A stretch of DNA of 64,000 nt, taken from the NCBI GenBank assembly GCA_033664045.1, contig GCA_033664045.1_3674.1, one strand, 5' to 3'. Positions within the stretch are counted from its first letter, which is position 1. Each line of letters begins with the position of its first letter. The notes under the pieces are model-generated. The model did not search any database and had not been told where the DNA came from. It saw only the letters and a program-made list of their open reading frames with translations. The position numbers and the translations under genes are program-made. Shown one piece after another: positions 4,441 through 36,559 of the stretch. This DNA comes from a phage.

Positions 4441-4450
4441 GGAGACCAAG

Positions 4451-8626: not shown

Positions 8627-8654
8627 GCCCTGCCCGAAAGGGTGGGGCTTTTTG
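8627..8654 (+). terminator. rho-independent terminator
   Basis: hairpin gccctgcccgaaagggtggggc followed by TTTTTG. Confidence 0.6.
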
Positions 8655-19433: not shown

Positions 19434-19462
19434 GCCCTGCCCGAAAGGGTGGGGCATTTTTG
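19434..19462 (+). terminator. rho-independent terminator (same hairpin as at 8627)
   Basis: gccctgcccgaaagggtggggc + ATTTTTG. Confidence 0.6.
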
Positions 19463-21843: not shown

Positions 21844-22176
21844 ATGGTAACATTAGAAAGACGTAAAGCTATCGCCGCAACACTGGCAGACATCTTTTGG
21901 GATTGCAACTTAAAAGATACCCGAAATTGTGGCGCATCTGTAGATGTATTATTCCCACGGCCCACCATTGTTGCAATGGGAAACCTGTTAAACGTAGTGT
22001 ACGGAGCATGGGACAAAGAAGGTGGATTCTATATCTGGCAACCTGACTACGGAGCCTGGAAAGAGGTAAGGGGTGCGGATGACTTTGGGCCTACAGTTGC
22101 TAAGATGGACGGCTGGGAAATTTATGTTGGAAACGACATGAAGCTGAAAGGCGAGATTGTTTACTGGCTACCTTAA
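21844..22176 (+). CDS. hypothetical protein
   Basis: co-directional ORF. Confidence 0.5.
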   Translation: MVTLERRKAIAATLADIFWDCNLKDTRNCGASVDVLFPRPTIVAMGNLLNVVYGAWDKEGGFYIWQPDYGAWKEVRGADDFGPTVAKMDGWEIYVGNDMKLKGEIVYWLP

Positions 22177-22185
22177 GGGTAAAGT

Positions 22186-22431
22186 ATGAACACAGAGTGG
22201 ACATCTGTAGACGGCGTTAAAAACATGCCTCTTGGAAAGTATATCGTAGCCATGGCTGATGAGGATGGCAATGTAGATTTCGGAGCTTGCGAGGTTATTC
22301 TTGCAGGATCTGGTAACTATGTAGACAAAACCGGGATAATTAACGGTCAGTTCTACTTTGATCACAACCCTGTTGTAGCGTATATGGCTATGCCAGAGTT
22401 TAAGTTCCCAAAGGAGGGTGCTGATGTTTAA
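22186..22431 (+). CDS. hypothetical protein
   Basis: RBS upstream; stop overlaps next ORF. Confidence 0.5.
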   Translation: MNTEWTSVDGVKNMPLGKYIVAMADEDGNVDFGACEVILAGSGNYVDKTGIINGQFYFDHNPVVAYMAMPEFKFPKEGADV

Positions 22432-22621
22432 GCTTAAATCCGCATGGAACATTGCTGTAGGTGACGAGATCCGTATCCCCGGTGGGAAGACCATTATGAA
22501 GATATCTCGTATTGAGTACGAAGGTGACCGTGTATTCCACATCTTCGCAGAAGATGGTCGAGAAATTTATATACAGGCAGGTTCTCACATTTATATCCGT
22601 AAGAAAGGGGACGACAAATGA
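22418..22621 (+). CDS. hypothetical protein
   Basis: RBS AAGGAGGG upstream. Confidence 0.5.
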   Translation: MLMFKLKSAWNIAVGDEIRIPGGKTIMKISRIEYEGDRVFHIFAEDGREIYIQAGSHIYIRKKGDDK

Positions 22622-22947
22622 CAGAGATCATCATTTCAACTGCAGGGTATGTGTTCCTGACAATCATTGCACTGACTATTTTGGTGACAGTGTATGGGTT
22701 TGTTATCCTTCCTATCCTTGAGACATTTAGTTTGTGTCGGTGTTGGAGAAAAGCTTACGGTCCACAACCATGGAAGGACTGGCCCCACCTGGTGCGCTTA
22801 GCGTTCTCTTATGCTTACGATCACTCCAGTAGTGCATGCATAACCGGATACCACGCCCACAACTGGAGCTGGGAAGGGTTGAGGAAATGGAATGTTACAA
22901 AGACCATACCTCTGCGCATGTACAAACCTAAAAACAAAGACAGCTGA
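22618..22947 (+). CDS. hypothetical membrane protein
   Basis: N-terminal hydrophobic helix IISTAGYVFLTIIALTILVTVYGFVILPIL. Confidence 0.5.
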   Translation: MTEIIISTAGYVFLTIIALTILVTVYGFVILPILETFSLCRCWRKAYGPQPWKDWPHLVRLAFSYAYDHSSSACITGYHAHNWSWEGLRKWNVTKTIPLRMYKPKNKDS

Positions 22948-22984
22948 TACTTGAAAATTCCTGGCATATCAAGTATAAGGGGGA

Positions 22985-23440
22985 TTTCTAAAATGGATTT
23001 CCTCCTTTTGATATTTCACCGGGCTGGATATTTTAAAATTCTTAGAAAATCAGAAAATGGATCGAAAACTAAAATGGATTTTTCAGAGTAGGCGCGACAA
23101 GCTGAATAACTCATCCTATCGTTTGCACCATATTCCAGGCCACAATTACAGATTTCCAGCACATGCTCCCACCCTTCTACTAGAACTTCCTCCACTTACC
23201 CTTTACCTTCTATGGTAACAATCTAACCACTATCTTGAAGTTGCGGTGCAGCTTTCCAGGTACTCGATCTACTTTTCATTTCAGGGCTTGGATTTTCTGA
23301 AAATTTTTCTCGATAAATTTCTCAGTACTCGATCTGTTTTTCGTTTTCTGAATCGGATTTTCTGGAAATCGTTCCGGATCTCGACCTGAAATTTTTGGGG
23401 ACGAAATCGATTTTTCGTTTTCAGAAATGGATTTTTAAAA
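22985..23440. repeat. non-coding tract with short direct repeats
   Basis: AAAATGGATTT x4, TACTCGATCT x2, GGATTTTCTG x2, TTTTTCGTTTTC x2. Confidence 0.5.
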
Positions 23441-23579
23441 TTTGTATATGGAAATATTTTAGGAGGTATTATTTTATATAGAATTGTCACGGTAGGTAAT
23501 TAGCATGCTAACTAAATTTATGAAATGCGAAAAGTTCTCATTTAGAATTTTGAATGATAATCATTCTCGTTTGCAGAAT

Positions 23580-23605
23580 AACGGGCACCCCCGGTGATTG
23601 TCTCC
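23580..23605. repeat. 26-bp repeat, left arm of perfect inverted repeat
   Basis: aacgggcacccccggtgattgtctcc; exact reverse complement at 32392-32417. Confidence 0.6.
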
Positions 23606-23712
23606 CGGCCCCTACTGCCCCGGCTTGTTATTATAGTAACACACAGGACAAAGAAAGCAAGAAGTTTTTTGCATAAATTTTTAGACGATAATGATAATCG
23701 TTCTCATTTTAT

Positions 23713-23741
23713 GCAGCGCCCATCCCCGGTGGTTGTCTCCC
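23713..23741. repeat. degenerate direct copy of the 23580 repeat
   Basis: gcagcgcccatccccggtggttgtctccc, preceded by gataatcgttctcatttt as the first copy is by gataatcattctcgttt. Confidence 0.4.
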
Positions 23742-23963
23742 TGTCACCGGTGCCTGCCGTCCTTTCGATATGTATATTGTGCCACCTGGCGGGGCCGCTG
23801 TCAACACTTTTCAAAAAATTTTTCTAACCTGATGCGCTAACCGCTGCAACCTGGCGGGGCCAGCCTGGCAGGACCTAACTGACCAGGTAGGAGAGAATGA
23901 AGGCTTGCAAACCTGGTGGGCCTATGCTATAGGATAGGTAACAATTGAAGAGGAGGTACAAAA

Positions 23964-24140
23964 ATGAAAGGTAATATAATCCCCCTGGAAAATGTAGCTA
24001 TTAATGACGCTGAGGCTATCGCCCTGGTTGAAAAGGCTATGGCGGGAGCGTTGGAACATAAAGAAGAGTACGAAAAAATGATGGTTAACCTGGCAGGGGC
24101 GGCGGCTGGAGAATTCTACCCAAAAAATAATTTTAACTGA
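23964..24140 (+). CDS. hypothetical small protein (58 aa)
   Basis: not in track (<60 aa); strong RBS AGGAGGT 7 nt before ATG; clean 59-codon frame. Confidence 0.5.
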   Translation: MKGNIIPLENVAINDAEAIALVEKAMAGALEHKEEYEKMMVNLAGAAAGEFYPKNNFN

Positions 24141-24224
24141 TGGTTGACAGCTCGTACAGTTATTGTTATTCTTATCCTCGCAAGGTGAACAACACCACAC
24201 CAATTAACAGAGAGGATAAAAATC

Positions 24225-24422
24225 ATGAACGCCTACGGAATCAAAGTACGTCGCAACACTCGCCAGGTGGTCACCGATCAAATGGTTTGCCGGGTGGATG
24301 TAACCATCAACAACGGGCAAGGCCTTTATAAATTCCGTCGCGGTCAGAGCTATACCCGGCAGCAGCTTAATCGTTGCGCCCTGACAAAAGGTCAGATAAA
24401 CCACTGGTTTAATAAAAAATAA
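24225..24422 (+). CDS. hypothetical protein
   Basis: RBS GAGAGGA; basic small protein. Confidence 0.5.
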   Translation: MNAYGIKVRRNTRQVVTDQMVCRVDVTINNGQGLYKFRRGQSYTRQQLNRCALTKGQINHWFNKK

Positions 24423-24486
24423 GTATTGACATATAGTCCGACACCAAATACACTAAAAGCACAAAAGACACTAAGAGGATAAAATC

Positions 24487-24885
24487 ATGAAAACCACTAC
24501 CTTTAATTTTGATAATGCGGACTTTTCTTTTTCTGATGTCAAGAACTGCCGCCGTGATCGTGGATTTTACAAGGCCTATAATCTGGTGGGCCTGGACGAT
24601 GACAATAATTTGCACGAAGTAGCTGAGATCCGGTATTATGCCGCCGCCAGCGGGAACACTCACTACTGCGTTTTTTGGATACACGACAACAAGAACAATA
24701 AGTACGGCTATACTGGAGGCAAGGCGAGCGGTCACGGTTATGATAAAGCCAACGCAGCACTTCAGAGCGCATTAAATGCTATGGGGATCACTGCCGACGG
24801 CTGGATCTACGAAGAAGAGTTTTTGTCGGCACTTGCTGACCGCCTGGGCTATAAAAAGCACATTGTAACATGCGCCCACGAATAA
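24487..24885 (+). CDS. hypothetical protein
   Basis: promoter TTGACA-N17-TACACT near 24426; RBS AAGAGGA. Confidence 0.55.
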   Translation: MKTTTFNFDNADFSFSDVKNCRRDRGFYKAYNLVGLDDDNNLHEVAEIRYYAAASGNTHYCVFWIHDNKNNKYGYTGGKASGHGYDKANAALQSALNAMGITADGWIYEEEFLSALADRLGYKKHIVTCAHE

Positions 24886-24967
24886 AAATTGTTGACACGC
24901 TGCAAAATTCAAGTAAACTGGGCACAAAAGGCGGGAATGTTTCCCGCCAACATAAAGGAAAAAGATC

Positions 24968-25372
24968 ATGAATAAGAACGTACGCCGCATCATGAACGAA
25001 CTGGCAAACGATGAAAAAATTATTGATATGCATTTGGTCAACATTTGCCGCCGTTGTGTAACATACAACAACCGCGCCGCAAAAGCGCGTGAGATGAACG
25101 CAAAAGGCACCTTAAAGCCATTCCAGGTGGTGGTAAAGGCCATTAAAGATGTAACTAATACGGCAAACCAGGTACAGGGGAACACCAACGAGAGTACCAA
25201 TATTGATCCGTCTTACGTAATGAAACGGATCCGGACTTGCAAGAATAAAGAGCAGGTGTATAACGTCATAGATTGGCTGGACTCCCTGGGCGATGTGGTT
25301 TACAATAGGTTTTCTGCAGCTATTGAGATTCAGTTAGACAGGTTGGACGGGAAAGTACTAAAAACTTACTGA
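24968..25372 (+). CDS. hypothetical protein
   Basis: promoter TTGACA-N16-TAAACT near 24893; leader hairpin ggcgggaatgtttcccgcc; RBS AAAGGAA. Confidence 0.55.
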   Translation: MNKNVRRIMNELANDEKIIDMHLVNICRRCVTYNNRAAKAREMNAKGTLKPFQVVVKAIKDVTNTANQVQGNTNESTNIDPSYVMKRIRTCKNKEQVYNVIDWLDSLGDVVYNRFSAAIEIQLDRLDGKVLKTY

Positions 25373-25373
25373 G

Positions 25374-25420
25374 TTTATTTTTAGATGGCCTTGACTTCAG
25401 GGCCATCAATAAAGTAAACT
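25374..25420 (+). repeat. 47-nt repeated hairpin element, copy 1
   Basis: tttatttttagatggccTTGACTtcagggccatcaataaagtaaact; stem tggcc/ggcca with TTGACT in loop. Confidence 0.5.
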
Positions 25421-25452
25421 AGTCTCAACTAAGCGAAAAAGGGGGCTTTAAG

Positions 25453-25572
25453 ATGAGCACTACACGCCAATACACAAAGGTAACTATTATCGTTTGCGTT
25501 GTCGGTTACATCCTGGCGCAAATGTTAATGAGTAGCGCCAACAGTTTTGCAAAATTTTTCTTAAATTTTTAA
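25453..25572 (+). CDS. hypothetical small hydrophobic protein (39 aa)
   Basis: not in track; RBS AAGGGGG before ATG; VTIIVCVVGYILAQMLM hydrophobic core. Confidence 0.4.
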   Translation: MSTTRQYTKVTIIVCVVGYILAQMLMSSANSFAKFFLNF

Positions 25573-25651
25573 TTGACAAGCTAACCCAAATCGGTATACT
25601 TAAACACGTAAACGGGAAAACTTCCCAGAACACACAAAAGGAGAAAACACC

Positions 25652-25993
25652 ATGACTACTATGACCGCCACAGAAAAAGCTATGCAGATCGCCGCGCTGA
25701 AAAAACAGATCGCAGACCTTGAGAACAAGATCGATAACTTTGAAATCGACGAGGACAAGTACGACGAAAACTATGACGAATGGTTAGACGAGATCTACGG
25801 CGAAATTATGATCGGAAACATTTCTTTTCTTCCGTCGCGTATCCTCAAGGAGCTGGATCCTATCGCTTACCGCTGCGGATTTAGCGACTACATCGACAGC
25901 TTGGATATTGAGGACGATGAAGAGTACCAAGAATTACAGACAGAGCTCGAAGAAGTGAAAGAAGAGCTTGCAGAACTGGAAGAAAACGAGTAA
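25652..25993 (+). CDS. hypothetical highly acidic protein
   Basis: promoter TTGACA-N16-TATACT; RBS AAGGAGA; roughly 30 percent D+E with coiled-coil-like C-terminus. Confidence 0.55.
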   Translation: MTTMTATEKAMQIAALKKQIADLENKIDNFEIDEDKYDENYDEWLDEIYGEIMIGNISFLPSRILKELDPIAYRCGFSDYIDSLDIEDDEEYQELQTELEEVKEELAELEENE

Positions 25994-25995
25994 AA

Positions 25996-26042
25996 TTTAT
26001 TTTTAGATGGCCTTGACTCCAGGGCCATCAATAAAGTAAACT
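25996..26042 (+). repeat. 47-nt repeated hairpin element, copy 2
   Basis: tttatttttagatggccTTGACTccagggccatcaataaagtaaact. Confidence 0.5.
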
Positions 26043-26083
26043 TTATACTGTTAACACTGAACTAATGCATAGGAGTTAAAACC

Positions 26084-26329
26084 ATGGCAGCACTAATCAC
26101 CAAATATTATGCCCCTACCAACACCAAAAGCGCCCGTATCATGGTAAAAGGCTTCGGACGTAAAAAGGTTTACACCTGGGATTATGCCTTAGACACAGAA
26201 GACAACTACACCAACGCGATGACCGATTTTATTAATGATCTGAACACGCGGATCTTGACAAATTATCAAATTACCGATATTGCCTATATAGGGGAAGGCG
26301 GGATCTGTTTTGTCGGTATCGTCAAATAG
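26084..26329 (+). CDS. hypothetical protein
   Basis: RBS AGGAG. Confidence 0.55.
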   Translation: MAALITKYYAPTNTKSARIMVKGFGRKKVYTWDYALDTEDNYTNAMTDFINDLNTRILTNYQITDIAYIGEGGICFVGIVK

Positions 26330-26406
26330 GCTGTTTTTTCGGTGGTCCTGGTAGCAGGGCCATCTATAAAGATAGTTTATCAACACAATGAAAGGAGAAA
26401 GTACAC

Positions 26407-26760
26407 ATGATCAGCGGGGCTAGTTTTATTATTGGCGCTATTGCTACGGCTTTAATTGTAAACAAGATCCAGGATAAAAAAGAAAGAGGAAGTACCGCCC
26501 TTGCAGAATATCCATTTTGGACATTCAACGATAACGAAGATTATATTATAAAGTATAAAAATAAAGAAGGCGACCAAGTAACACCGCGACCGATCCCGGC
26601 TTACAAAATGCAGGAAACACTATACCGCCTGGAGGCGGGGGGCGCAAAAATTGTGGACTTTTGGGGATACGACCACACAGATCAGGAAGTTATAAAGCGC
26701 CGTATCCGGGCTATTCAGGCCAATATTGAAGTTAGCAAGGGTGGAATATATGAAAATTAA
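26407..26760 (+). CDS. hypothetical protein
   Basis: RBS AAAGGAGA. Confidence 0.55.
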   Translation: MISGASFIIGAIATALIVNKIQDKKERGSTALAEYPFWTFNDNEDYIIKYKNKEGDQVTPRPIPAYKMQETLYRLEAGGAKIVDFWGYDHTDQEVIKRRIRAIQANIEVSKGGIYEN

Positions 26761-26947
26761 TTTCGAGAAAATTGTAAAGCGCCCTCATGATTCCGAAGAG
26801 CTGCCAGAACGCCGACAGCGTAACAATAAACTGAATAAGCCAAAAAGATTTGGGAAGATCTGGCGGAATCATTATGATCGTAAATTGCCCGGCCTACTTT
26901 TGGAACGTGAACGACAGGCAGAACGATACCGCCATAAAGACAAATAA
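26750..26947 (+). CDS. hypothetical basic protein
   Basis: ATG at 26750 after AAGGGTGGA; overlaps upstream stop. Confidence 0.5.
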   Translation: MKINFEKIVKRPHDSEELPERRQRNNKLNKPKRFGKIWRNHYDRKLPGLLLERERQAERYRHKDK

Positions 26948-26955
26948 CAACCAAC

Positions 26956-26984
26956 GCCCCGCCATTGTGCGGGGCTTTTTATTT
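26956..26984 (+). terminator. rho-independent terminator
   Basis: gccccgccattgtgcggggc + TTTTTATTT. Confidence 0.6.
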
Positions 26985-27166
26985 CTATCCTACGAATAGC
27001 GCCCCTGGTTGGCCCTGTAAGCGCCAAAAAGGCCCCCACCTATGCAATCGCCCCCCTTTAACCTGAAAACATCGCCCAGGGCCGTTTTATGGCGTTAAAA
27101 ATATCATTGACATCGTCAACAGGTTAGCTATACTAACCACATCAAAGAGAGAAAGGAGTAAACGCC

Positions 27167-27427
27167 ATGCGTAAATTAAAAAATTTTGATAAAGTTGATG
27201 TTATCCTGAATAATTTTTACTACTGCAACAATAAGGCTATTTGGTGGCGTGATAGTTCCACCGATAAAGTCAAGGCGCGCTTTCTTCAGGGGCACTGGCA
27301 AGGCCGCCCAGTGATTAAAATCATGGGGCAATTGGTAGCGTTTAAAAATTGCCGCCGTGTTGATGACGTTGAGGAGATTTTAAACATTTTGCGCCACAAT
27401 AATTTAAAAAATAGTGTTGACAAGTAA
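27167..27427 (+). CDS. hypothetical protein
   Basis: promoter TTGACA-N16-TATACT near 27104; RBS AAAGGAG. Confidence 0.55.
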   Translation: MRKLKNFDKVDVILNNFYYCNNKAIWWRDSSTDKVKARFLQGHWQGRPVIKIMGQLVAFKNCRRVDDVEEILNILRHNNLKNSVDK

Positions 27428-27444
27428 ATCTCAATAAGTATAAT
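27417..27444 (+). promoter_or_regulatory. sigma70-like promoter TTGACA-N16-TATAAT followed by leader hairpin
   Basis: gTTGACAagtaaatctcaataagTATAATtaaacacacaGGCGGGaaaacttCCCGCC. Confidence 0.55.
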
Positions 27445-27501
27445 TAAACACACAGGCGGGAAAACTTCCCGCCACTAACAAAGAAAACAGGAGAAAATAT
27501 C

Positions 27502-28125
27502 ATGACCACCGTTAACATTACCACAGGTTACAATTTATCTTTCGACGTGCTGACCGATGAACAAAAAGAAAAAGCTATTGAAATGGTCCGCGAAAGAGAA
27601 GAACACAGCGGGGATAACTTTTTTGCAGAAAGTGTAATTGAAGACTATAAAGAACATATCTTTCCAGAGTATGGCCTTGAAGATACCAAGGTACATTGGT
27701 CCGGATTTTGGTGCCAGGGCGACGGCGCATCAATCAGTGCGGAAAACGTGGATTTAGAAAAATTCTTGCGTAAAGTAAAGGCCCTTACCAAGTTCCGATC
27801 AATTCGTCACTTGTTCGGCACAATGCACGATGGCGAACTATCCGCAAGCGTTGAGCGTGATCCATATAGCCGCTATAGTCACGAAAACACTGTAAGCGGG
27901 TACATCGATACTACATGGCTAGACCTGACCGCCAAACAAGAAAATAAAGTGGAAGATCTGGAAGAGCTGATCACCGAGACGGTACGGGAGCTATCCCGCA
28001 AGGTTTACGTAGACCTGGAGCAAGCTTATCTTGAACAATTTACTACCGAAAACCTGATCGGCCTTATCGAGGCCAATGATTGGCGGTTTGATGTGGATGA
28101 ATATGGCGAGATGACTTTTTCATAA
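27502..28125 (+). CDS. hypothetical acidic protein
   Basis: RBS CAGGAGA; 207 aa. Confidence 0.55.
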   Translation: MTTVNITTGYNLSFDVLTDEQKEKAIEMVREREEHSGDNFFAESVIEDYKEHIFPEYGLEDTKVHWSGFWCQGDGASISAENVDLEKFLRKVKALTKFRSIRHLFGTMHDGELSASVERDPYSRYSHENTVSGYIDTTWLDLTAKQENKVEDLEELITETVRELSRKVYVDLEQAYLEQFTTENLIGLIEANDWRFDVDEYGEMTFS

Positions 28126-28214
28126 ATAAAGTGTTGCAATAACCTAAAAACCTGCTATATTAAAACTCAAGGGGCAAGACGTTTGCCCCCACACAAAACA
28201 AAGAGGAAAACATC

Positions 28215-28595
28215 ATGAAAAACACCACTAAAGCTATTGACACCGTTATGTTTAACCTGGTTACCTTTCGCGAGGATATGAAAGATCTTCCGCGTGAAAC
28301 AGTGTGCGACCATATCGAAAACTATCGCAAACTAATCAAAGAGTTGCCTTTAAAACGTGATCAGTATGCGGCTAACGCCATGCTTAATGCCATGATCAAA
28401 AAGATGATCCAGTGTGATTTAACTCTGGCCTATGACTATGCGGGTGGTCGTTTTGCAGTATACAATCAGCCCGTGCCTGGTATGAGCACCACCGAAGAAT
28501 TGCACGCGCTCAATCTAAAACAAGACGTGTGGGATAGTATGCCTCGCGTGGTGGTATGGGTAGAAAGCGGAAAGATTTACGGCGATAATTTTTAA
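28215..28595 (+). CDS. hypothetical protein
   Basis: promoter TTGCAA-N16-TATATT; leader hairpin ggggcaagacgtttgcccc; RBS AAAGAGGA. Confidence 0.55.
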   Translation: MKNTTKAIDTVMFNLVTFREDMKDLPRETVCDHIENYRKLIKELPLKRDQYAANAMLNAMIKKMIQCDLTLAYDYAGGRFAVYNQPVPGMSTTEELHALNLKQDVWDSMPRVVVWVESGKIYGDNF

Positions 28596-28659
28596 TCAGG
28601 TAACAGGCGGCATATTTGCCGCCTTATTGTTAATCAGAACTGTAAAAGAGGTACATAGA

Positions 28660-29031
28660 ATGGAATTTATTATTTTGGCTGTACTGGTTGCCTTGTTTAA
28701 CGCCTGGATCGCTGGCAAGATGGGAAGATCCGCCTTTTTATGGTTTATTATATCTATTTTCCTGGGGGTGGTTGCAACTATTGTATTGGTTATCCTTGCA
28801 ATTGTTGACAAGGGGAATAATAGAAAGGGTAAAGTATTTTCAGACCTGTACGACGCTCAAACGTTTGTCAACGCCTATTATAGTGATCTCCCAGTCTCCC
28901 TACGTTGCAGCCTTGCACAACAGGTTTTCGATGAAGCTAAAACCAGAGATCACGCCCATGAGATTTGTTTAACTGAGGCGGATCGCTTATTTGAGAGGAA
29001 TAGAAAATATGTGGGCCAGCCGTTTAAATAA
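28660..29031 (+). CDS. hypothetical membrane protein
   Basis: ATG at 28660 after AAAAGAGG; two hydrophobic helices. Confidence 0.5.
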   Translation: MEFIILAVLVALFNAWIAGKMGRSAFLWFIISIFLGVVATIVLVILAIVDKGNNRKGKVFSDLYDAQTFVNAYYSDLPVSLRCSLAQQVFDEAKTRDHAHEICLTEADRLFERNRKYVGQPFK

Positions 29032-29250
29032 TACCACGTTAATTAATCCGCTTAGTGAAGATTTGAGGCCAGCCGCCTGGCGGGATGGATTCAATAATGA
29101 AAGCTTTATTTTCAGGCCTGATCTTAAGGAATTTTATAACAATGGATCGGACAACGACAGAGATAATTTTTCTTGTAATGTGCGTGGTGATAATACTCCT
29201 GGGGGCCATTGCAAACCACGTAACTGCTAACAGGGGGAAGGGGGGAGACG

Positions 29251-29370
29251 ATGACAACCAAGGATAAGCCCCGCACCGATAAGGCGCGCCGTGCTATGGT
29301 ATGGCTTGAGATCATCGCCCTTGAAATATTGTTAGGTGTAGGGATGTATTTTATCGCTGTAAGTAACTGA
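29251..29370 (+). CDS. hypothetical small membrane-anchored protein (39 aa)
   Basis: not in track; G-rich RBS before ATG; basic N-terminus then hydrophobic helix; terminator follows. Confidence 0.35.
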   Translation: MTTKDKPRTDKARRAMVWLEIIALEILLGVGMYFIAVSN

Positions 29371-29374
29371 TAAC

Positions 29375-29415
29375 GGCCCCCGATCCCTGGGGGCCTAACT
29401 TTTTAAAATTTTTTT
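29375..29415 (+). terminator. rho-independent terminator
   Basis: ggcccccgatccctgggggcc followed by long T-tract. Confidence 0.55.
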
Positions 29416-29513
29416 CTCCTTGGGTGTTGCAATCCGATCCAGAATATGGATAATAACAATCAACGGGGAGACACTCCCCACCACACAGACAAAATTCCAA
29501 AAGGAGAAACAAA

Positions 29514-29714
29514 ATGAGCAACAATATCCGCGTTATTAACTTCAAAAAAGAAGAAAAAATTGCTGTGCTGGTTGATGGTCAAGAAATCTTCAAGGGCGAC
29601 TATGAAGATCATCAAACGGCGATTAGTATCACTCGCGTGATCGGTTACCATAATTTCTACCCCCAAGGCGCTGAGGCAGCAGTTAAACGAATCAAAGAGA
29701 TTGTAGGCCTGTAA
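29514..29714 (+). CDS. hypothetical protein
   Basis: promoter TTGCAA-N17-ATAATA; leader hairpin ggggagacactcccc; RBS AAAGGAGA. Confidence 0.5.
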   Translation: MSNNIRVINFKKEEKIAVLVDGQEIFKGDYEDHQTAISITRVIGYHNFYPQGAEAAVKRIKEIVGL

Positions 29715-29716
29715 AA

Positions 29717-29762
29717 TTTATTTTTAGATGGCCTTTACTTCAGGGCCATCAATAAAGTAAAT
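29717..29762 (+). repeat. 47-nt repeated hairpin element, copy 3
   Basis: tttatttttagatggcctttacttcagggccatcaataaagtaaat. Confidence 0.5.
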
Positions 29763-29805
29763 TTAAACCCTGTTAAAATAATCAGTGCAAAAAGGAGTAA
29801 TGATC

Positions 29806-30105
29806 ATGTTTATACCCGCCAATAATCTTTATTTCTTTGATGGTCAGATCGTAGACGGTGTGGAAGTGGAGATCACTGGGTGCCCTGGTGGTCAGGCTAT
29901 GACTTTTCGGAATAATGCCTTTGATGATTCTCATATCGTTATGAGAATGGAAGTTACAAAGCTGGACGACAAGAAAACGCTTATTGACTATTCCGTGAAA
30001 GATCATCCAGACTACCACATGATCTATGGTGATTTGTGTATTGTTGACCGTGACAAGGTGGGCGGCATTGTGATCGCTATTGTGAACGATGTTTTCTCTG
30101 AATAA
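29806..30105 (+). CDS. hypothetical protein
   Basis: ATG at 29806 with AAGGAG RBS (track start 29785). Confidence 0.5.
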   Translation: MFIPANNLYFFDGQIVDGVEVEITGCPGGQAMTFRNNAFDDSHIVMRMEVTKLDDKKTLIDYSVKDHPDYHMIYGDLCIVDRDKVGGIVIAIVNDVFSE

Positions 30106-30329
30106 TTCCGGCAAATGATGCAAAATAAGGCCCCTAGCAGGGCCTGCAGCGATATAATCACATAAAGGCTATGCGGTTGCATGGCCTTTATTATTTTAGC
30201 GTTACAGCGGCCCCCAAGGCGCTTAAAAAATTTTTAAAGAAGTACTTGCATCAAGCCCTACAATATGGATAATAGGACGTGTCAGGGGGGCGGCCCCAAT
30301 CATTAACCGGATAGATAGGAGTTAAAACC

Positions 30330-30614
30330 ATGGCTATTGTTACTGCTGGCGATGTAGTAGAAATGGAAGCAAAATACTTAAAAGCGGGTATGCATATCCT
30401 ACGGAATGATCAAGAGTTATTATTAACGATGGTCGACTATAATCCCGGCCAGGATTATCCAAGCATCGACTACTTTTTTGAGTATGTTGATGAAGAATTA
30501 AAAGAGGATGAGGCCTATTGCGGTGAGTTCTGCAATTTCTTTTGTCCTGATGAGGTTGTAAAGGTTATCTATCAACCTGGCGTAGCTTTCCCTCTGCACG
30601 CTATCAATAAATAA
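30330..30614 (+). CDS. hypothetical protein
   Basis: promoter TTGCAT-N17-ATAATA; RBS TAGGAG. Confidence 0.55.
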   Translation: MAIVTAGDVVEMEAKYLKAGMHILRNDQELLLTMVDYNPGQDYPSIDYFFEYVDEELKEDEAYCGEFCNFFCPDEVVKVIYQPGVAFPLHAINK

Positions 30615-30679
30615 ACCTGGCGGGGCCGAAAAGGCCCCTACAGCATAAAATCATAAAAAATAAAGAGAGGCAAATCATC

Positions 30680-30913
30680 ATGATGGAACAAATTAAACGC
30701 GCTGAGGCTATTAATGGCAATGTGATCTATTTTGTCAGCAAAAACGAAAAAGGCGTACCATATGCGGCGGTAATAGTACAGCCTGACGGAGATTATTGGT
30801 TTACTGTATACGGATCTTATTCTTTTGGGCGTCCAGTGCATGATAAAATTTTGAAAGTAGCGAACCCCACCGGGAAGAATATCACGGCAGAAAAATTTTT
30901 TGAAAAGTGTTGA
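30680..30913 (+). CDS. hypothetical protein
   Basis: RBS AAAGAGAGG. Confidence 0.5.
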   Translation: MMEQIKRAEAINGNVIYFVSKNEKGVPYAAVIVQPDGDYWFTVYGSYSFGRPVHDKILKVANPTGKNITAEKFFEKC

Positions 30914-30988
30914 CATGACCATATAAAACTGTAGTATATAAATCAAAGGGGGCAACAAGCCCCACCAACCACAAAGAGGATAAAAATC

Positions 30989-31168
30989 ATGGCTATTATT
31001 GCAAAAACTGAGATCGTAGGCTTAGATTCTATTCTCCTCGCATATGAGGAAGCTATAGAAATGTATGTGGTTTCCTATGGTGAGTATATCCGTGAATATA
31101 AATCTATTGATCTGGCTTTTGAATGTTATATTCGCCAGGTAAATAAAGCATATGATGATTATCGTTAA
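30989..31168 (+). CDS. hypothetical small protein (59 aa)
   Basis: not in track; promoter TTGACA near 30910, leader hairpin gggggcaacaagcccc, RBS AAAGAGGA. Confidence 0.45.
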   Translation: MAIIAKTEIVGLDSILLAYEEAIEMYVVSYGEYIREYKSIDLAFECYIRQVNKAYDDYR

Positions 31169-31264
31169 AATAGTTTGACAACAAACAACCATCTAACAAA
31201 GCATAATACATAAGGTGGTAGAATGATCTGATCCGCCACCTGGAACAAAGAAGAGGTAAACACC

Positions 31265-31369
31265 ATGAAACAGAAATTAATTGATGCAGTGATCTTGGTT
31301 ATTGCCCTAGGTATTGGCCTGATTGCAACCATGGCTAATGTGATCTTGTCTTCCAACGGTATCGGGTGA
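31265..31369 (+). CDS. hypothetical hydrophobic peptide (34 aa)
   Basis: not in track; RBS AAGAAGAGG; single predicted TM helix. Confidence 0.35.
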   Translation: MKQKLIDAVILVIALGIGLIATMANVILSSNGIG

Positions 31370-31378
31370 GGTTGACAA

Positions 31379-31594
31379 ATGATCACTAACAAAACAGGCA
31401 AAACGGAATTTTTACGCAACTTGCAGATCGGCAAGCCTGAGATCTGGTATTGCACTAAAACACCACGTGACGAAATGAAAGACTTCACCGCCACGCTGCA
31501 ACGGGTAAAGATATCTATCACGCAGAAAAAGGCCTTACTAGTGGTGGAAGGGGAGATCCCCCAAACCGTTGTTATAGTTGAGCGTACAGCATAG
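31379..31594 (+). CDS. hypothetical protein
   Basis: ORF close after the 34-aa peptide. Confidence 0.5.
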   Translation: MITNKTGKTEFLRNLQIGKPEIWYCTKTPRDEMKDFTATLQRVKISITQKKALLVVEGEIPQTVVIVERTA

Positions 31595-31683
31595 TTTAAT
31601 CTATACCGTACGCCCCATTAACTAACAAAGCATAAACAGGCGGCGGTAACCGCCTTAAACGCAGCAGAAAGAGGATAGACAAC

Positions 31684-31968
31684 ATGAAAAAGATGATCGC
31701 AGTGGTTGCCCTGGTTATTGGACTTAATGCGCCTGTAATGGCTAAAGAGCTGGCAAAAGAGGTAGATCTAACTGATATCCATGCCGTCAATCAAATCGGT
31801 GTTACTTATCGGTTATGCCTTGCCGCAAAAACTTTCCAGGATGGCACAACAGAGTACTACGGATTCGAAGGCATCCGGTGCGGTGAGCTTGCTCGCGACC
31901 TTAAAGAAGATCCAGACCTGGAGGATCTGCCGATAACCGTAAACGGGAAAACTTACGTGAACCGTTAA
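31684..31968 (+). CDS. hypothetical secreted protein
   Basis: signal-peptide-like MKKMIAVVALVIGLNAPVMA; RBS AAAGAGGA. Confidence 0.5.
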   Translation: MKKMIAVVALVIGLNAPVMAKELAKEVDLTDIHAVNQIGVTYRLCLAAKTFQDGTTEYYGFEGIRCGELARDLKEDPDLEDLPITVNGKTYVNR

Positions 31969-31970
31969 CC

Positions 31971-32105
31971 ATGAGAAAGATAATTATCACCATGGGGATC
32001 GTGGCGGGATCGCTGGCGCTCTTTCTCCTTATGGTTAGGTATGTGCTGATCAGTATTGTCCTGACAGTCAGTGATCTATTGGAAACGGTTGGCACCTTGT
32101 TTTAA
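31971..32105 (+). CDS. hypothetical hydrophobic peptide (44 aa)
   Basis: not in track; starts 2 nt after upstream stop; weak RBS. Confidence 0.3.
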   Translation: MRKIIITMGIVAGSLALFLLMVRYVLISIVLTVSDLLETVGTLF

Positions 32106-32118
32106 AGAGCGATAGAAA

Positions 32119-32310
32119 ATGAATATCGAACAAGTTAGAAAGGTATTAACGGTACTGCGTTATCATAATCATAGAAAGGTCATAGACGATCCTGATTATG
32201 TTGATTCAAGCCTGGAAGGGGATACACTGCAAGCCATAAGCAACATGCAAGAATTGCTCAAGCGCATGACAGAGAAAAACCGACCGGACTACATAGGCGA
32301 AAAAATATAA
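32119..32310 (+). CDS. hypothetical protein
   Basis: ORF followed by terminator-like hairpin and T-tract near 32322-32350. Confidence 0.5.
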   Translation: MNIEQVRKVLTVLRYHNHRKVIDDPDYVDSSLEGDTLQAISNMQELLKRMTEKNRPDYIGEKI

Positions 32311-32391
32311 TCCTTATAAACTACAAAACAGGGCTTGCAATGGTCCTGTTTTTTGTTATACTTGTTTCACGGGTGGCACCTGGCGACGGGG

Positions 32392-32417
32392 GGAGACAAT
32401 CACCGGGGGTGCCCGTT
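32392..32417. repeat. 26-bp repeat, right arm of perfect inverted repeat
   Basis: ggagacaatcaccgggggtgcccgtt is the exact reverse complement of 23580-23605. Confidence 0.6.
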
Positions 32418-32522
32418 ATATAAAAAACTATAAAAACCGTTGACATCTGCCGGGTGGTGGGGTAGCATTTACCTTGAAGGGGCAAAAGTGCCCACACAAC
32501 AACCAGAAGAGAGGAAAACACT

Positions 32523-32795
32523 GTGTCAAGCTGGATTAATCAAGAAGTAGAATCACGTTTTAATGCTATTTGGGATCTCATCGAAAAAGAGGACGGAACA
32601 TCAAGCCCCTACCTCAACAATTTGGAATTCCATTTTGTGGAAGCGATGAACGCAGAACATGATCACGAAGGTGGCGCGGATGATTTCGCTAAAGGTTATG
32701 GCTTTAACAATGCCAACGAAATGATCGAGTCGGTCGTACTCCAGGCTGAGGAAGATTATCAATTAAAAACGCTTGAATTCTGCCGCCATAAGTAA
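32523..32795 (+). CDS. hypothetical protein
   Basis: GTG start; promoter TTGACA-N17-TAGCAT near 32443; RBS GAGAGGA. Confidence 0.5.
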   Translation: MSSWINQEVESRFNAIWDLIEKEDGTSSPYLNNLEFHFVEAMNAEHDHEGGADDFAKGYGFNNANEMIESVVLQAEEDYQLKTLEFCRHK

Positions 32796-32856
32796 TAAGA
32801 TAATGACACGGGCCAAAAGGCCCACCAATCAGAACCGCACAAAGAGGAAAAACATC

Positions 32857-33120
32857 ATGAAACGTCTTGACCAGCTCAAATTAGTTCAATATATGGCTTA
32901 TCGTGTTCTTGAAGTCCAAAAAGGTAGCAAAAAAGAGGTTTGCGAGAAAGCATATAAGATCTTTACCCGTAAAAAAGATGATTGGATGTTACGCCAGACC
33001 AAAAAGGCTGACATCTTGGGGTACCTGGAAGAAGAGATCCGGCTTGAAGAACAAGAAGAGATCCGCCGCAGTGAGGCAGATTATCAGGCAGCTTGGGAAA
33101 ACTGGATGAGCAACAAATAA
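32857..33120 (+). CDS. hypothetical protein
   Basis: ATG at 32857 after AAAGAGGAAA; leader hairpin gggccaaaaggccc. Confidence 0.5.
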   Translation: MKRLDQLKLVQYMAYRVLEVQKGSKKEVCEKAYKIFTRKKDDWMLRQTKKADILGYLEEEIRLEEQEEIRRSEADYQAAWENWMSNK

Positions 33121-33265
33121 TACAACAAGTTACATGGTCAGGGGGCAATAAAGCCCCTTTATCGCATAAAAATTATGCTATCCTTGGTTGACAGGGATCG
33201 GCAGTTTTGCTATATTCTTTTTTGAAGGGAAGTTGTAAGAAAATTAACTAAGAGGTAAAAACACC

Positions 33266-33685
33266 ATGAACATTAAATCTAATAATCCGGCATATAGCTT
33301 TGATAACGCTTTTTGTCACGGTCCGGCGGCGAAAGGATTCGAAATCGATGGTAAACTAATTATTGTCAATGTTGACGGGGAAGAGGTTGCAGTATATCCG
33401 GTGGCAGACGTTAAAAGCCGTTTGCAATGCCGCATGGATGTTACCGCCTATCAGCTTGATCCGGTCCGCATAGTTGCCCTGGTCCTGGAAGAAGAAATTA
33501 AAGCCATGCACCATAGCAACAGGTTTATTGGTGACGCACAGGATAATATGAAGGTATGCCGCCATAAAGTTAATGAAGTGCTTAAAGAATATGGCTTTAA
33601 AGATCTGATGATCAAACGTGAGGAAAAATTCCGTTATCGTAACGACCTGGCAAATCGGATTTTTGAAATATACGAATCATTATAA
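33266..33685 (+). CDS. hypothetical protein
   Basis: promoter TTGACA-N17-TATATT near 33186; RBS TAAGAGG; last gene of plus-strand block. Confidence 0.55.
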   Translation: MNIKSNNPAYSFDNAFCHGPAAKGFEIDGKLIIVNVDGEEVAVYPVADVKSRLQCRMDVTAYQLDPVRIVALVLEEEIKAMHHSNRFIGDAQDNMKVCRHKVNEVLKEYGFKDLMIKREEKFRYRNDLANRIFEIYESL

Positions 33686-33703
33686 TTTATTAACTGAATT
33701 ATC

Positions 33704-33730
33704 AAGGGGCTTAAGGCCCCTTTCTTTTTG
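33704..33730 (+). terminator. rho-independent terminator closing the plus-strand block
   Basis: aaggggcttaaggcccc + TTTCTTTTTG. Confidence 0.6.
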
Positions 33731-34179
33731 TTTGCTCTTTTCCTACCACAAACGGCCCAGCCTGGCAAGTGGAATAATTGACTAGCCATCAATCCCGCAC
33801 ACTGTACAAATATACATATAAAATAGATATTGCATAACCTTTCATTGTGTGGTAGCAGGGCCATTTTTACACGTTTTTCCTTCCAAAATTGCACGTAATG
33901 CAGCTATTGCACAAAATTTAACCTGATGCACATCTTCAGTATACTGTCAACAATTAAAAACCCTTATAAGTCATACACTTACACAAACCAAAAAGCGTGT
34001 CCTACGTGAAAAATCGGGTGTAACTATAGCCGACAGATCTCAGAATCCACGTACGATCACCATTCTATAGCCTGCAAAGTATTTATTCCAACCACAGAAT
34101 AACGGAATAGTCAATACCTGTATAAAATAATTATTCGTATAAACTGCATAACATAAACCCGCCCAGGTGTCAACATTTT

Positions 34180-36222: not shown

Positions 36223-36438
36223 TCAGTCCAGCGGTTCATCCTCTACTTCACTGAAATCAATGTTCATGGTCTCTTCCCAACCATCGATCTCAGCACAAGA
36301 GTGGAGTTCTTTAGGGTTTACTCCCAAAGCCTCAGCAACAGAGTCTATATTTAACACCTCTGGCAGGTATGATTCATCGAATTCAAGGTAAATCAGGCCA
36401 CGAGTGTTGTCAGCTCCACCAAATATTTCTATCTTCAT
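36223..36438 (-). CDS. hypothetical small acidic protein
   Basis: last ORF of minus-strand block; MKIEIF N-terminus shared with family. Confidence 0.5.
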   Translation of the reverse strand: MKIEIFGGADNTRGLIYLEFDESYLPEVLNIDSVAEALGVNPKELHSCAEIDGWEETMNIDFSEVEDEPLD

Positions 36439-36559
36439 GAAATCTCCTCTGGAAATGAGAGTGTGAACAGGGTTTCATACGTTCCAGTGCACAGGAATTA
36501 TGCACGTTTGCCTCTTCAGGCCATGCTTTAGCATGAGAAACCTGTGTGGGCTCGGTGCT

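What the first reader, a model, noticed from the sequence alone, without database searches (positions are those of the whole stretch)
25374..29762. Three copies of a ~47-nt hairpin element with a -35-like hexamer in its loop
tttatttttagatggccTTGACTtcagggccatcaataaagtaaac occurs almost identically at about 25374, 25996 and 29717 (copy 3 has TTTACT), each directly after a stop codon. Degenerate relatives containing agcagggcca occur near 26345, 30130 and 33850. The stem tggcc/ggcca encloses TTGACT, an arrangement reminiscent of promoter-stem-loop elements in T4-type early regions. It may couple termination of one cassette to initiation of the next, or be a small mobile or recombinogenic repeat.
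Basis: partly seen in the sequence, partly recalled or inferred. Interest (0 to 1): 0.55.

Follow-up and report, generated by a model that had tools for sequence, protein, structure and literature searches.

The report
RNase III-like hairpins between phage genes
Four copies of a roughly 55-base RNA hairpin sit just after stop codons in the early genes of an rV5-like coliphage; they most likely mark mRNA cutting and stabilising sites like those of phage T7, three also carry a host-type promoter, and recombination between copies removes or moves gene cassettes.

Summary
Three near-identical copies lie at 25374, 25996 and 29717. A fourth copy at 26326-26380 is only 61% identical but has the same fold. 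No further copies occur in the window or in the rV5 early unit. The window is an rV5-like phage (Vequintavirus).

The conserved feature is a hairpin in the sense-strand RNA, not the -35 hexamer. It has an 11-bp A/U lower stem, a 2/3-nt internal loop, a 10-bp upper stem and a tetraloop. It shows G·U pairs, compensatory changes and strong strand asymmetry. There is no U-tract, so it is not an intrinsic terminator.

The copies lie between cistrons, inside operons bounded by sigma-70 promoters and canonical terminators. A covariance model built only from these four copies picks five known T7 RNase III sites among its six hits across T7. T7 site R1 has the same UA/AAU internal loop.

Three copies also keep TTGAC-N18-TAAAYT, so a weak promoter is plausible.

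Copies 1 and 2 have recombined in at least five relatives, deleting 622 bp. A promoter-gene-hairpin cassette ending exactly at the element also occurs in a phage of another subfamily.

The element is not described in the literature. I judge it a new variant of a known kind, of moderate interest.

The parts
25372..25423 (+). Copy 1 (site 1). Lower stem 25372-25381 / 25411-25420; internal loop 25382-83 (UA) and 25408-10 (AAU); upper stem 25384-25393 / 25398-25407; tetraloop ACUU 25394-97. Follows the TGA stop of the 134-aa ORF and precedes a 39-aa ORF.
   Evidence: RNA fold -25.9 kcal/mol, z -6.5, versus -18.5 for the minus strand. Covariance model 82.9 bits.
25990..26046 (+). Copy 2 (site 2). 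Same architecture, tetraloop ACUC. Follows the TAA stop of the 113-aa ORF and precedes the 81-aa ORF.
   Evidence: Fold -23.0 kcal/mol, z -7.5. 82.1 bits.
26326..26380 (+). Divergent copy (site d). 61% identical in sequence with an identical dot-bracket structure and six G·U pairs; no TTGAC in the loop. Follows the TAG stop of the 81-aa ORF and precedes the 117-aa ORF.
   Evidence: RNA fold -27.8 kcal/mol (z -6.9) versus -9.2 for the minus strand. As DNA the lower stem is lost. 73.2 bits.
29714..29764 (+). Copy 3 (site 3). The G-to-T change (TTTACT) opens the closing pair of the upper stem in this window. Follows the TAA stop of the 66-aa ORF and precedes the 99-aa ORF (29806-30105).
   Evidence: -20.3 kcal/mol, z -6.3; 81.5 bits. 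Most of the relatives examined have TTGAC at this site; one metagenome contig (L124) also has TTTAC.
25391..25420 (+). Sigma-70-like hexamers TTGACT-N18-TAAACT inside copy 1. The same arrangement occurs at 26013-26042, and as TTTACT-N18-TAAATT at 29734-29763. The -35 lies in the upper stem and loop, the -10 in the 3' arm of the lower stem, and the T-rich 5' arm lies where a UP element would sit.
   Evidence: Consensus scan, 9/12 matches. PhagePromoter annotation in phage Gotham. TTGAC and TAAAYT are invariant in canonical copies across about 12 relatives.
25573..26046 (+). Expression cassette: sigma-70 promoter (TTGACA-16-TATACT), 5'-UTR hairpin, 113-aa ORF and copy 2. It is shared at 96% identity with Justusliebigvirus KKE7M, which belongs to another subfamily. 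Homology starts at the promoter and stops at the end of the element.
25421..25995 (+). Segment lost or gained by recombination between copies 1 and 2 (39-aa ORF, promoter, 113-aa ORF; repeat spacing 622 bp).
   Evidence: A hybrid element with site 1 upstream flank and site 2 downstream flank occurs in ECP32, ECP26, phiWec189, ime and L051.
24892..24919 (+). Sigma-70 promoter (TTGACA-16-TAAACT) heading the operon 134-aa ORF - copy 1 - 39-aa ORF.
   Evidence: Corresponds to P194 of the rV5 paper.
26956..26985 (+). Canonical intrinsic terminator (GCCCCGC...GCGGGGC followed by TTTTTATTTC). It closes the operon P25573 - 113 aa - copy 2 - 81 aa - copy d - 117 aa - 65 aa.
29375..29405 (+). Canonical terminator upstream of the unit 66-aa ORF - copy 3 - 99-aa ORF. 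That unit is closed by the terminator at 30162-30201.
   Evidence: Correspond to t181 and t177 of the rV5 paper.
33850..33864 (+). 15-nt relic (TGGTAGCAGGGCCAT) identical to the loop and 3' arm of copy d. It has no hairpin and is conserved in relatives.

Best explanation
The element is a stem-loop that functions in the sense-strand mRNA. It has an 11-bp A/U-rich lower stem, a 2/3-nt internal loop (UA/AAU), a 10-bp G+C-rich upper stem and a tetraloop. It sits directly after the stop codon of an upstream early cistron, inside polycistronic transcripts made by host RNA polymerase. I propose it is an intercistronic processing and stability signal of the phage T7 type. Host RNase III would cut once in the 3' side of the internal loop, near 25408-11, 26030-33, 26365-68 and 29751-54. 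That would leave the upstream message capped by the upper hairpin and release the downstream message with an unstructured A-rich leader. In three of the four copies the same DNA also reads as a moderate sigma-70 promoter (TTGACT-N18-TAAACT) that could add transcription of the downstream gene. Because the copies are about 50-bp direct repeats, homologous recombination between them deletes, inserts or transfers the intervening promoter-gene-hairpin cassettes. What is shown: the repeat, the fold and its covariation, the strand asymmetry, the operon context, the recombinant genomes and the structural match to T7 sites. What is inferred: cleavage by RNase III, promoter activity and the effect on expression.
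For: RNA-level structure. All four copies give the same two-part hairpin on the + strand (-20 to -28 kcal/mol, z -6.3 to -7.5). The minus strand is much weaker, and copy d collapses to -9.2. As DNA, copy d loses the lower stem. On 29 distinct sequences from relatives, 96.7% of cells pair versus 36-55% when the partners are slid. Four lower-stem pairs change on both sides (30 cells, 0/500 shuffles reach this). All upper-stem changes are one-sided and keep G·U, and one U·G pair is invariant. Canonical copies are variable at 8-10% of columns, versus 24% for other intergenic DNA and 33% for third codon positions. Operon context. Strong sigma-70 promoters lie at 24892 and 25573, and U-tract terminators lie at 26956, 29375 and 30162, so the hairpins are internal to operons. 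T7 analogy. T7 intergenic RNase III sites fold with the same plan and also start at stop codons; R1 has a 9-bp upper stem with G·U pairs, a tetraloop and an identical UA/AAU internal loop. The covariance model built only from the four window copies gives six hits at E<=10 in the searches of the whole of T7 (both strands). Five fall in the intergenic regions that hold R1, R0.3, R1.1, R0.5 and R18.5. The cleavage coordinates, which I recall from the T7 record, map to the model's 3' internal loop. RNase III rules. A helix of about 22 bp, a distal box about 11 bp from the cut and an internal loop that gives a single cut leaving a stabilising 3' hairpin are the established features. The upper stem carries the UA/UG doublet reported as the optimal distal box. 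Cassette behaviour. Promoter.
Against: No transcript data exist for any Vequintavirus in the searched literature, so cleavage and promoter use are untested. Individual model hits on T7 are weak (7-14 bits, E 0.19-8.3); only their joint placement is telling. The G-C pair next to the internal loop may be a catalytic antideterminant at proximal-box position 4, depending on the register. Only four such hairpins serve an early region of about 75 genes, so this is not a general processing strategy as it is in T7. The invariance of loop bases AC in canonical copies is better explained by a DNA-level -35 constraint than by RNase III. The hairpin could protect 3' ends without any endonuclease.
Confidence: 0.5

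Rival explanations
1. The element is a 3'-end protector or protein-binding hairpin that works without RNase III. The stem-loop simply blocks 3'-to-5' exonucleases, as intercistronic REP hairpins do in E. coli operons, or it binds a host or phage RNA-binding protein. Either would give unequal expression of neighbouring cistrons.
For: The same structural evidence applies as for the best explanation and the same operon context. The lower stem and internal loop are conserved to the letter, including in unrelated AT-rich phages, which suggests a sequence-specific reader rather than RNase III.
Against: A plain exonuclease block does not need a conserved asymmetric internal loop or a two-turn helix. 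The specific match to T7 RNase III sites would then be coincidental. No candidate RNA-binding protein is encoded nearby: all neighbours are of unknown function.
Confidence: 0.2
2. The element works purely at the DNA level, as a sigma-70 early promoter whose -35 is embedded in a palindromic operator (GATGGCC-N10-GGCCATC) bound by a dimeric regulator. On this view the RNA fold is incidental.
For: TTGACT-N18-TAAACT scores 9/12, and the upstream T-rich tract lies at the UP-element position. TTGAC and TAAAYT are invariant in canonical copies while loop positions 3-4 vary. PhagePromoter predicts a promoter here. The distance to the downstream SD/ATG (25-40 nt) is suitable.
Against: Copy d has no -35 (CTGGTA) and six changes that keep pairing only as sense-strand RNA. 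A protein operator should conserve sequence, not covary. The half-sites tolerate A-to-G and C-to-T changes that preserve G·U pairing. In KKE7M the element travels with the upstream gene, not with the gene it would drive. The 18-bp spacer and the weak -10 contrast with the 16/17-bp consensus promoters used elsewhere in this region.
Confidence: 0.15
3. The element is a T4-type composite terminator/promoter, in which the hairpin terminates or attenuates upstream transcription and the promoter restarts it, insulating each cassette.
For: It lies between a stop codon and an ATG in a plastic early region. It combines a promoter-like sequence with a stem-loop. Recombination between copies removes a cassette, as shown for T4-type elements in RB49/phi1. 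The Murica record annotates the element as a terminator.
Against: No U-rich tract follows the stem in any copy; the 3' flank is A-rich (AAUAAAGUAAAC). The terminator scan flags the neighbouring canonical terminators but not the element. The base of the helix is A/U-rich, unlike intrinsic terminators. In T4-type elements the stem-loop lies upstream of the AT-rich region and the -35, not around the -35.
Confidence: 0.1
4. The element is a selfish or mobile miniature repeat, or a dedicated recombination site recognised by a specific nuclease or recombinase, with no role in gene expression.
For: It is an imperfect palindrome of about 55 nt present in several copies. Variants such as loop ACAC and internal loop G recur at different sites in different genomes, suggesting gene conversion. 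It lies at the edge of a horizontally moved cassette. Hairpins with identical flanks occur in unrelated phages, one of them next to an HNH endonuclease gene.
Against: The four sites are fixed in 121 records, with no presence/absence polymorphism of the element alone and no target-site duplications. Other indels in the region use microhomology rather than the element. No recombinase or nuclease gene is adjacent. Strand-specific G·U covariation points to RNA.
Confidence: 0.06

Closest known systems
Phage T7 RNase III processing sites (R0.3, R0.5, R1, R1.1, R1.3, R18.5)
   Same: Both are intercistronic and start at the stop codon of the upstream gene. Both occur in transcripts made from sigma-70 promoters. 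Both have a two-part helix of about 20 bp with an asymmetric internal loop, a 9-10-bp upper stem containing G·U pairs, a tetraloop and no U-tract. R1 has the identical UA/AAU internal loop. The rV5-derived covariance model finds five T7 sites among its six hits. Some T7 sites share their intergenic region with minor E. coli promoters B, C and E.
   Different: There is no sequence homology beyond short GGCC motifs, and the T7 consensus CUCAAGGUC...GUGGCCUUUAUGAUU is absent. The lower stem here is longer and almost pure A/U. The promoter hexamers lie inside the hairpin. There are only four copies, in a myovirus that encodes no RNA polymerase. Cleavage is untested.
PeSL (promoter-early stem-loop) cassettes of T4-type phages (Arbiol et al. 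2010; Comeau et al. 2014)
   Same: Both are repeated elements of about 50-60 bp lying between a stop codon and the next ATG in a plastic early region, and both combine a sigma-70-like promoter with a stem-loop. Recombination between copies deletes or moves small genes of unknown function. Several rV5 early genes have RB49 homologues.
   Different: A PeSL stem-loop is a short G(n)/C(n) hairpin placed upstream of the AT-rich tract and the -35, and it works as a terminator in reporter tests. Here the helix wraps around the -35 and includes the -10, lacks a U-tract and resembles RNase III sites. There are 4 copies rather than dozens. The host phage is not T4-type.
Intercistronic stabiliser hairpins (REP-type) in bacterial operons
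   Same: Both are stable stem-loops after a stop codon inside an operon, expected to shield upstream mRNA from 3' exonucleases (general knowledge).
   Different: REP elements are chromosomal and have their own consensus. They lack the conserved asymmetric internal loop and the embedded promoter.
Rho-independent terminators
   Same: Both have a G+C-rich stem-loop in an intergenic region. One public record annotates the element as a terminator.
   Different: There is no U-tract, the base of the helix is A/U-rich, and the flanks have the reverse polarity: T-rich on the 5' side and A-rich on the 3' side on either strand.

Membership tests
T7-type RNase III processing signal | Helix of about two turns (about 20-22 bp), interrupted or not | tested here: met
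   11 + 10 pairs in all four copies.
T7-type RNase III processing signal | Asymmetric internal loop about 11-12 bp below the hairpin tip, giving a single cut | tested here: met
   A 2/3 internal loop lies below the 10-bp upper stem in all copies and relatives. The loop UA/AAU is identical to that of T7 R1.
T7-type RNase III processing signal | Intercistronic position in a polycistronic transcript | tested here: met
   Predicted promoters and terminators place all copies inside operons. This rests on sequence prediction, not on transcripts.
T7-type RNase III processing signal | Favourable proximal and distal box pairs, with no antideterminants | tested here: inconclusive
   A UA/UG doublet lies near the loop and AU/UA pairs lie at two proximal positions. 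However, the G-C pair adjoining the internal loop could be a catalytic antideterminant, depending on the register.
T7-type RNase III processing signal | Cleavage by RNase III in vitro, or rnc-dependent ends in vivo | not testable with these tools
   No transcriptome of a Vequintavirus was found.
T7-type RNase III processing signal | Resemblance to known sites when sequence and structure are scored together | tested here: met
   Covariance model R1 hits T7 R1, R0.3, R1.1, R0.5 and R18.5 as five of its six hits across the 39.9-kb genome. Each hit is individually weak.
PeSL (T4-type promoter-early stem-loop) | Sigma-70-like -35/-10 with an AT-rich upstream tract, between a stop codon and the next ATG | tested here: met
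   Three of four copies read TTGACT-N18-TAAACT (9/12, 18-bp spacer) after a T-rich tract. Copy d fails.
PeSL (T4-type promoter-early stem-loop) | Stem-loop placed upstream of the promoter and acting as a terminator | tested here: not met
   The helix encloses the -35 and contains the -10. There is no U-tract and the terminator scan does not detect it.
PeSL (T4-type promoter-early stem-loop) | Recombination between copies creates indels or exchanges of small early genes | tested here: met
   A hybrid site 1/site 2 element with a 622-bp deletion occurs in five genomes. The cassette shared with KKE7M ends at the element.
PeSL (T4-type promoter-early stem-loop) | Many copies spread through the plastic regions of a T4-type genome | tested here: not met
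   There are four copies within 4.4 kb of a Vequintavirus.
Intrinsic (rho-independent) terminator | G+C-rich stem immediately followed by a U-tract | tested here: not met
   The 3' flank is AAUAAAGUAAAC. The element is absent from the terminator-like sites, whereas neighbouring true terminators are listed.
Sigma-70 promoter | -35 and -10 hexamers at 16-18 bp that are conserved across relatives | tested here: inconclusive
   Hexamers are present and invariant in canonical copies. But they overlap paired positions, the spacer is 18 bp, copy d lacks the -35, and activity is untested.
Miniature mobile repeat (MITE-like) | Presence/absence polymorphism of the element alone, with target-site duplication | tested here: not met
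   The same four sites are occupied in all relatives examined. The only polymorphism is recombination between copies.
Rfam RNA families | Match to any curated covariance model | tested here: not met
   No relevant match in 22000-37000 at E<=1.

The most novel reading that the evidence does not exclude
The lower stem and internal loop (TTTATTTTTAGA ... TCAATAAAGTAAAT) may form a sequence-specific RNA module shared across unrelated phage lineages. Letter-identical flanks enclose different, covarying upper stems in AT-rich uncultivated phages, beside tail-fibre and HNH endonuclease genes (L011, L098, L076, L127, L145, L125), as well as in Vequintavirus and one Justusliebigvirus. If this reflects a common dedicated reader, or horizontal spread of a portable 'cassette boundary' signal, it would be a new widespread phage RNA motif that marks exchangeable gene modules, rather than convergence on RNase III preferences or a bias of my search.
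Probability: 0.12. Interest if true: 0.7.

Novelty: new variant of a known kind. Interest (0 to 1): 0.42.

Why it matters
rV5-like phages are widely used as therapeutic and biocontrol coliphages, yet their early-gene regulation is known only from promoter and terminator prediction. These hairpins give a concrete, testable handle on post-transcriptional control: rnc-dependent processing and unequal expression within early operons. They also explain a recurrent natural deletion and a cassette transfer between two phage subfamilies. They show that 'regulatory linker' shuffling, described for T4-type phages, also operates in another myovirus group with a differently built element. Public records annotate the same sequence inconsistently as a promoter or as a terminator, and this analysis argues that neither label captures it. 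For engineering, the repeats are predictable instability points.

Tried and rejected
- Rfam scan of 22-37 kb: nothing relevant.
- Pfam and PHROGs on ten neighbouring proteins: all of unknown function, with no nuclease, recombinase or regulator (searches failed on a frame error).
- Intrinsic terminator reading: rejected because no U-tract follows the stem.
- DNA cruciform or operator reading: rejected as the main role because copy d folds only as sense-strand RNA.
- Further copies: none found with the covariance model in the window or in the rV5 early unit.
- Deeper orthologous sites via the 81-aa protein: homologues occur only in unrelated phages, with no intermediate Vequintavirinae.
- Identity of the AT-rich contigs: no isolate relatives. 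A search for related loci added nothing.
- The genome-contig scan for the flank pattern gave 22 loci, none of which formed the hairpin.
- Literature searches for the element, for rV5-like stem-loops and for Vequintavirus transcriptomes found nothing.
- The rV5 paper's promoter and terminator tables do not list the element.
- The loop-variant table by script misclassified sites, so I read the variants from the alignment instead.

Full report
**What the window is.** The 7-kb stretch around the finding is 93-96% identical to more than 100 Escherichia phages of the genus Vequintavirus, the rV5-like myoviruses. The + strand of 1-36000 corresponds to the minus-strand early transcription unit of rV5, genes 164-238 and 1-10. 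This unit is packed with small ORFs of unknown function driven by consensus sigma-70 promoters. GC skew changes sign near 36 kb.

**The observation.** The 24-nt core occurs three times, at 25384, 26006 and 29727, with 0-1 mismatches. Shuffled sequence gave none.
- The repeat finder extends the copies to 54 nt at 87-100% identity and adds a fourth, 61%-identical copy at 26325-26378.
- Each copy begins 0-3 nt after a stop codon.
- A covariance model built from the four copies finds no other copy in the window; the next hit has E=0.24. It finds none elsewhere in the rV5 early unit either.
- BLAST finds the canonical element in 121 phage records, almost always three places per genome. All are Vequintavirus except one Justusliebigvirus.
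- The 'relative' at 30128 is a different 6-bp hairpin. It ends a gene that is present in EdH4 but deleted here.
- The one at 33850 is a 15-nt relic that does not fold.

**Anatomy.** Folded as RNA, the + strand of all four copies gives one architecture:
- lower stem of 11-13 A/U-rich pairs;
- internal loop of 2 nt (UA) opposite 3 nt (AAU);
- upper stem of 10 pairs (GAUGGCCUUG/CAGGGCCAUC, with one U·G);
- a tetraloop.

Energies are -20 to -28 kcal/mol with z-scores of -6.3 to -7.5. The minus strand is weaker throughout, and for copy d it drops to -9.2 kcal/mol with z -1.8. With DNA parameters copy d keeps only the upper stem. These hairpins rank among the most stable 58-nt local folds in 37 kb despite 31-42% G+C.

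The 5' flank is T-rich and the 3' flank is A-rich on either strand. This is the reverse of a terminator. The terminator scan lists the neighbouring canonical terminators but not the element.

**Comparative evidence.** I took the region from about a dozen relatives and several metagenome contigs.
- On 29 distinct element sequences, 96.7% of cells pair, versus 36-55% with slid partners.
- Four lower-stem pairs change on both sides, for example U-A/C-G, A-U/U-A and G-C/A-U (30 cells; 0/500 shuffles reach this).
- All upper-stem changes are one-sided and preserve G·U. One U·G pair is invariant.
- Variable columns make up 8-10% of canonical copies, 24% of other intergenic DNA and 33% of third codon positions.
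- Variation concentrates in loop positions 3-4, one internal-loop base and the helix base.

Together this shows selection on a structure in the sense-strand RNA.

**Promoter reading.** Copies 1 and 2 read TTGACT-N18-TAAACT, and copy 3 reads TTTACT-N18-TAAATT.
- Across relatives TTGAC is nearly invariant in canonical copies, although its last two bases are unpaired loop bases, while the next two loop bases vary freely. That pattern fits a -35 constraint.
- PhagePromoter called the element a promoter in phage Gotham. The Murica annotators called it a terminator.
- Copy d has no -35 yet keeps the fold, so the promoter is at most a second function of three copies.
- A transcript started there would not contain the hairpin. 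The RNA structure can therefore act only on read-through transcripts from upstream.

**Operon context.** Consensus promoters lie at 24892 and 25573. U-tract terminators lie at 26956, 29375 and 30162 (P194, P192, t181 and t177). The layout is:
- P24892 - 134 aa - [copy 1] - 39 aa;
- P25573 - 113 aa - [copy 2] - 81 aa - [copy d] - 117 aa - 65 aa - terminator;
- terminator - 66 aa - [copy 3] - 99 aa - terminator.

The hairpins are intercistronic elements inside operons.

**Analogy with T7.** RNase III substrates need about two helical turns. The distal box lies about 11 bp from the cut. Internal loops restrict cleavage to one strand and leave a stabilising 3' hairpin.
- T7 intergenic regions known to hold RNase III sites fold with the same plan and also begin at the upstream stop codon. 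R1 has a 9-bp upper stem with G·U pairs, a tetraloop and the same UA/AAU internal loop.
- The model built only from the four window copies gives five hits in T7 800-6600. Four lie in the intergenic regions of R1, R0.3, R1.1 and R0.5.
- It gives a single hit in the remaining 33 kb, in the gene 18/18.5 spacer that holds R18.5.
- Each hit is weak (7-14 bits). Five of six hits on RNase III sites is far from chance.
- The cleavage coordinates I recall from the T7 record (890, 1468, 3138, 5887, 36856; from my own knowledge) all map to the model's 3' internal loop.
- T7's minor E. coli promoters B, C and E share these spacers, so a promoter beside an RNase III site has a precedent.

**Recombination and cassette transfer.**
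- In ECP32 and IMG/VR contig L051 the 134-aa gene is followed directly by the 81-aa gene. A single hybrid element carries site 1's upstream flank and site 2's downstream flank.
- A junction-specific search finds the same hybrid as one uninterrupted match in ECP32, ECP26, phiWec189 and ime.
- In Justusliebigvirus KKE7M (subfamily Stephanstirmvirinae) a 475-bp block is 96% identical to 25572-26046. It starts at the -35 of P25573 and ends at the last base of copy 2. The flanking genes are unrelated. The element therefore travels as the 3' end of a promoter-gene-hairpin cassette.
- The same loop and internal-loop variants recur at different sites in different genomes, suggesting gene conversion.
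- Other indels nearby, in rV5_ev146 and at the gene missing at 30105, do not use the element. It is therefore one recombination substrate among several.

**Comparison with known systems.** The element behaves like T4-type promoter-stem-loop elements (PeSLs) in being a repeated promoter-plus-stem-loop linker that mediates cassette shuffling. It fails two of their defining features: a stem-loop upstream of the promoter, and terminator function. Its structure matches T7 RNase III sites without sequence homology. It has no Rfam family and no mention in the searched literature.

**Unexplained extra.** Pattern scans for the outer flanks found hairpins in AT-rich uncultivated phage contigs. Their lower stem and internal loop are letter-identical (26 nt) to the rV5-type element. 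Their upper stems differ and covary, and they again fold only on the coding strand. They lie upstream of tail-fibre genes or an HNH endonuclease gene. Those contigs share nothing else with the window. Non-hairpin chance matches to the same pattern lack the additional shared bases. The cause could be convergence on an RNase III reactivity epitope, horizontal spread of a portable signal, or selection bias in my search. I cannot decide between these.

**Verdict.** The repeat is real, and it is a conserved sense-strand RNA hairpin at the 3' end of early cistrons.
- It most likely works as a T7-like RNase III processing and stability site: about 0.5 for this full model and about 0.85 for an RNA-structure role of some kind.
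- Three copies probably double as weak sigma-70 promoters (about 0.5).
- Recombination between copies is demonstrated.
- It is a new variant of a known kind, of moderate interest.

Noticed in passing
L011 890-955, L098 365-437, L076 11-78 (-), L127 1011-1082, L145 6306-6371 (-), L125 762-807: AT-rich uncultivated phage contigs carry coding-strand hairpins with the same 26-nt lower stem and internal loop as the rV5-type element, but with different, covarying upper stems. They lie next to tail-fibre genes or an HNH endonuclease gene. The contigs share no other similarity with the window.
   Followed up: partly
window 25573-25638 and 27417-27482 (partial third copy at 31938-31962): A 66-nt module is repeated at 74% identity. 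It consists of a consensus sigma-70 promoter plus a 5'-UTR hairpin (GGGAAAACTTCCC). It forms the 5' end of the cassette shared with KKE7M.
   Followed up: partly
L089 (KKE7M) versus window 25572-26046, 30977-31170, 31314-31592, 28248-28581: A Justusliebigvirus shares four separate small early-gene modules (75-96% identity) with this Vequintavirus, embedded among unrelated genes. This indicates cassette exchange between the two subfamilies.
   Followed up: partly
window 23250-23435 and 63052-63089: Degenerate repeats spaced about 65 nt apart (70-74% identity) lie in an intergenic stretch upstream of the early ORFs, with a related sequence 40 kb away. Tandem Repeats Finder sees almost nothing here.
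   Followed up: no
window about 33700-36000: A stretch of roughly 2.3 kb has no convincing ORFs, and GC skew changes sign near it. It corresponds to the 'non-coding' box of the rV5 paper. It contains the 15-nt relic of copy d at 33850-33864.
   Followed up: no
GenBank MG0656xx records (hits): 21 'Campylobacter phage' records, marked UNVERIFIED, are 93-95% identical to this coliphage. Their host label is probably wrong. One of them (A12a) starts inside copy 1, which suggests the assembly broke at the repeat.
   Followed up: no
window 25386-25418 (also inside copies 2 and 3): The canonical copies contain a 10-codon ORF, ATG GCC TTG ACT TCA GGG CCA TCA ATA AAG TAA, with no Shine-Dalgarno sequence. 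It is probably meaningless.
   Followed up: no
window 30105-30160; L001 6602-6952: A 351-nt gene present in EdH4, isim, Murica, ECP32 and others is deleted in this window and in rV5. Only its last codons and its 3' hairpin (30128-30145) remain, followed by a TATAAT sequence.
   Followed up: partly
L090 (rV5_ev146): This rV5 derivative has lost the equivalents of window 24961-25465 and 26895-32398, with 12-18-nt overlaps at the junctions. These deletions arose by microhomology rather than through the hairpin repeats.
   Followed up: partly
window 8627-8653 and 19434-19460: Two nearly identical (96%) strong terminator hairpins, GCCCTGCCCGAAAGGGTGGGGC followed by a T-run. They correspond to t232 and t213 of the rV5 paper.
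   Followed up: no
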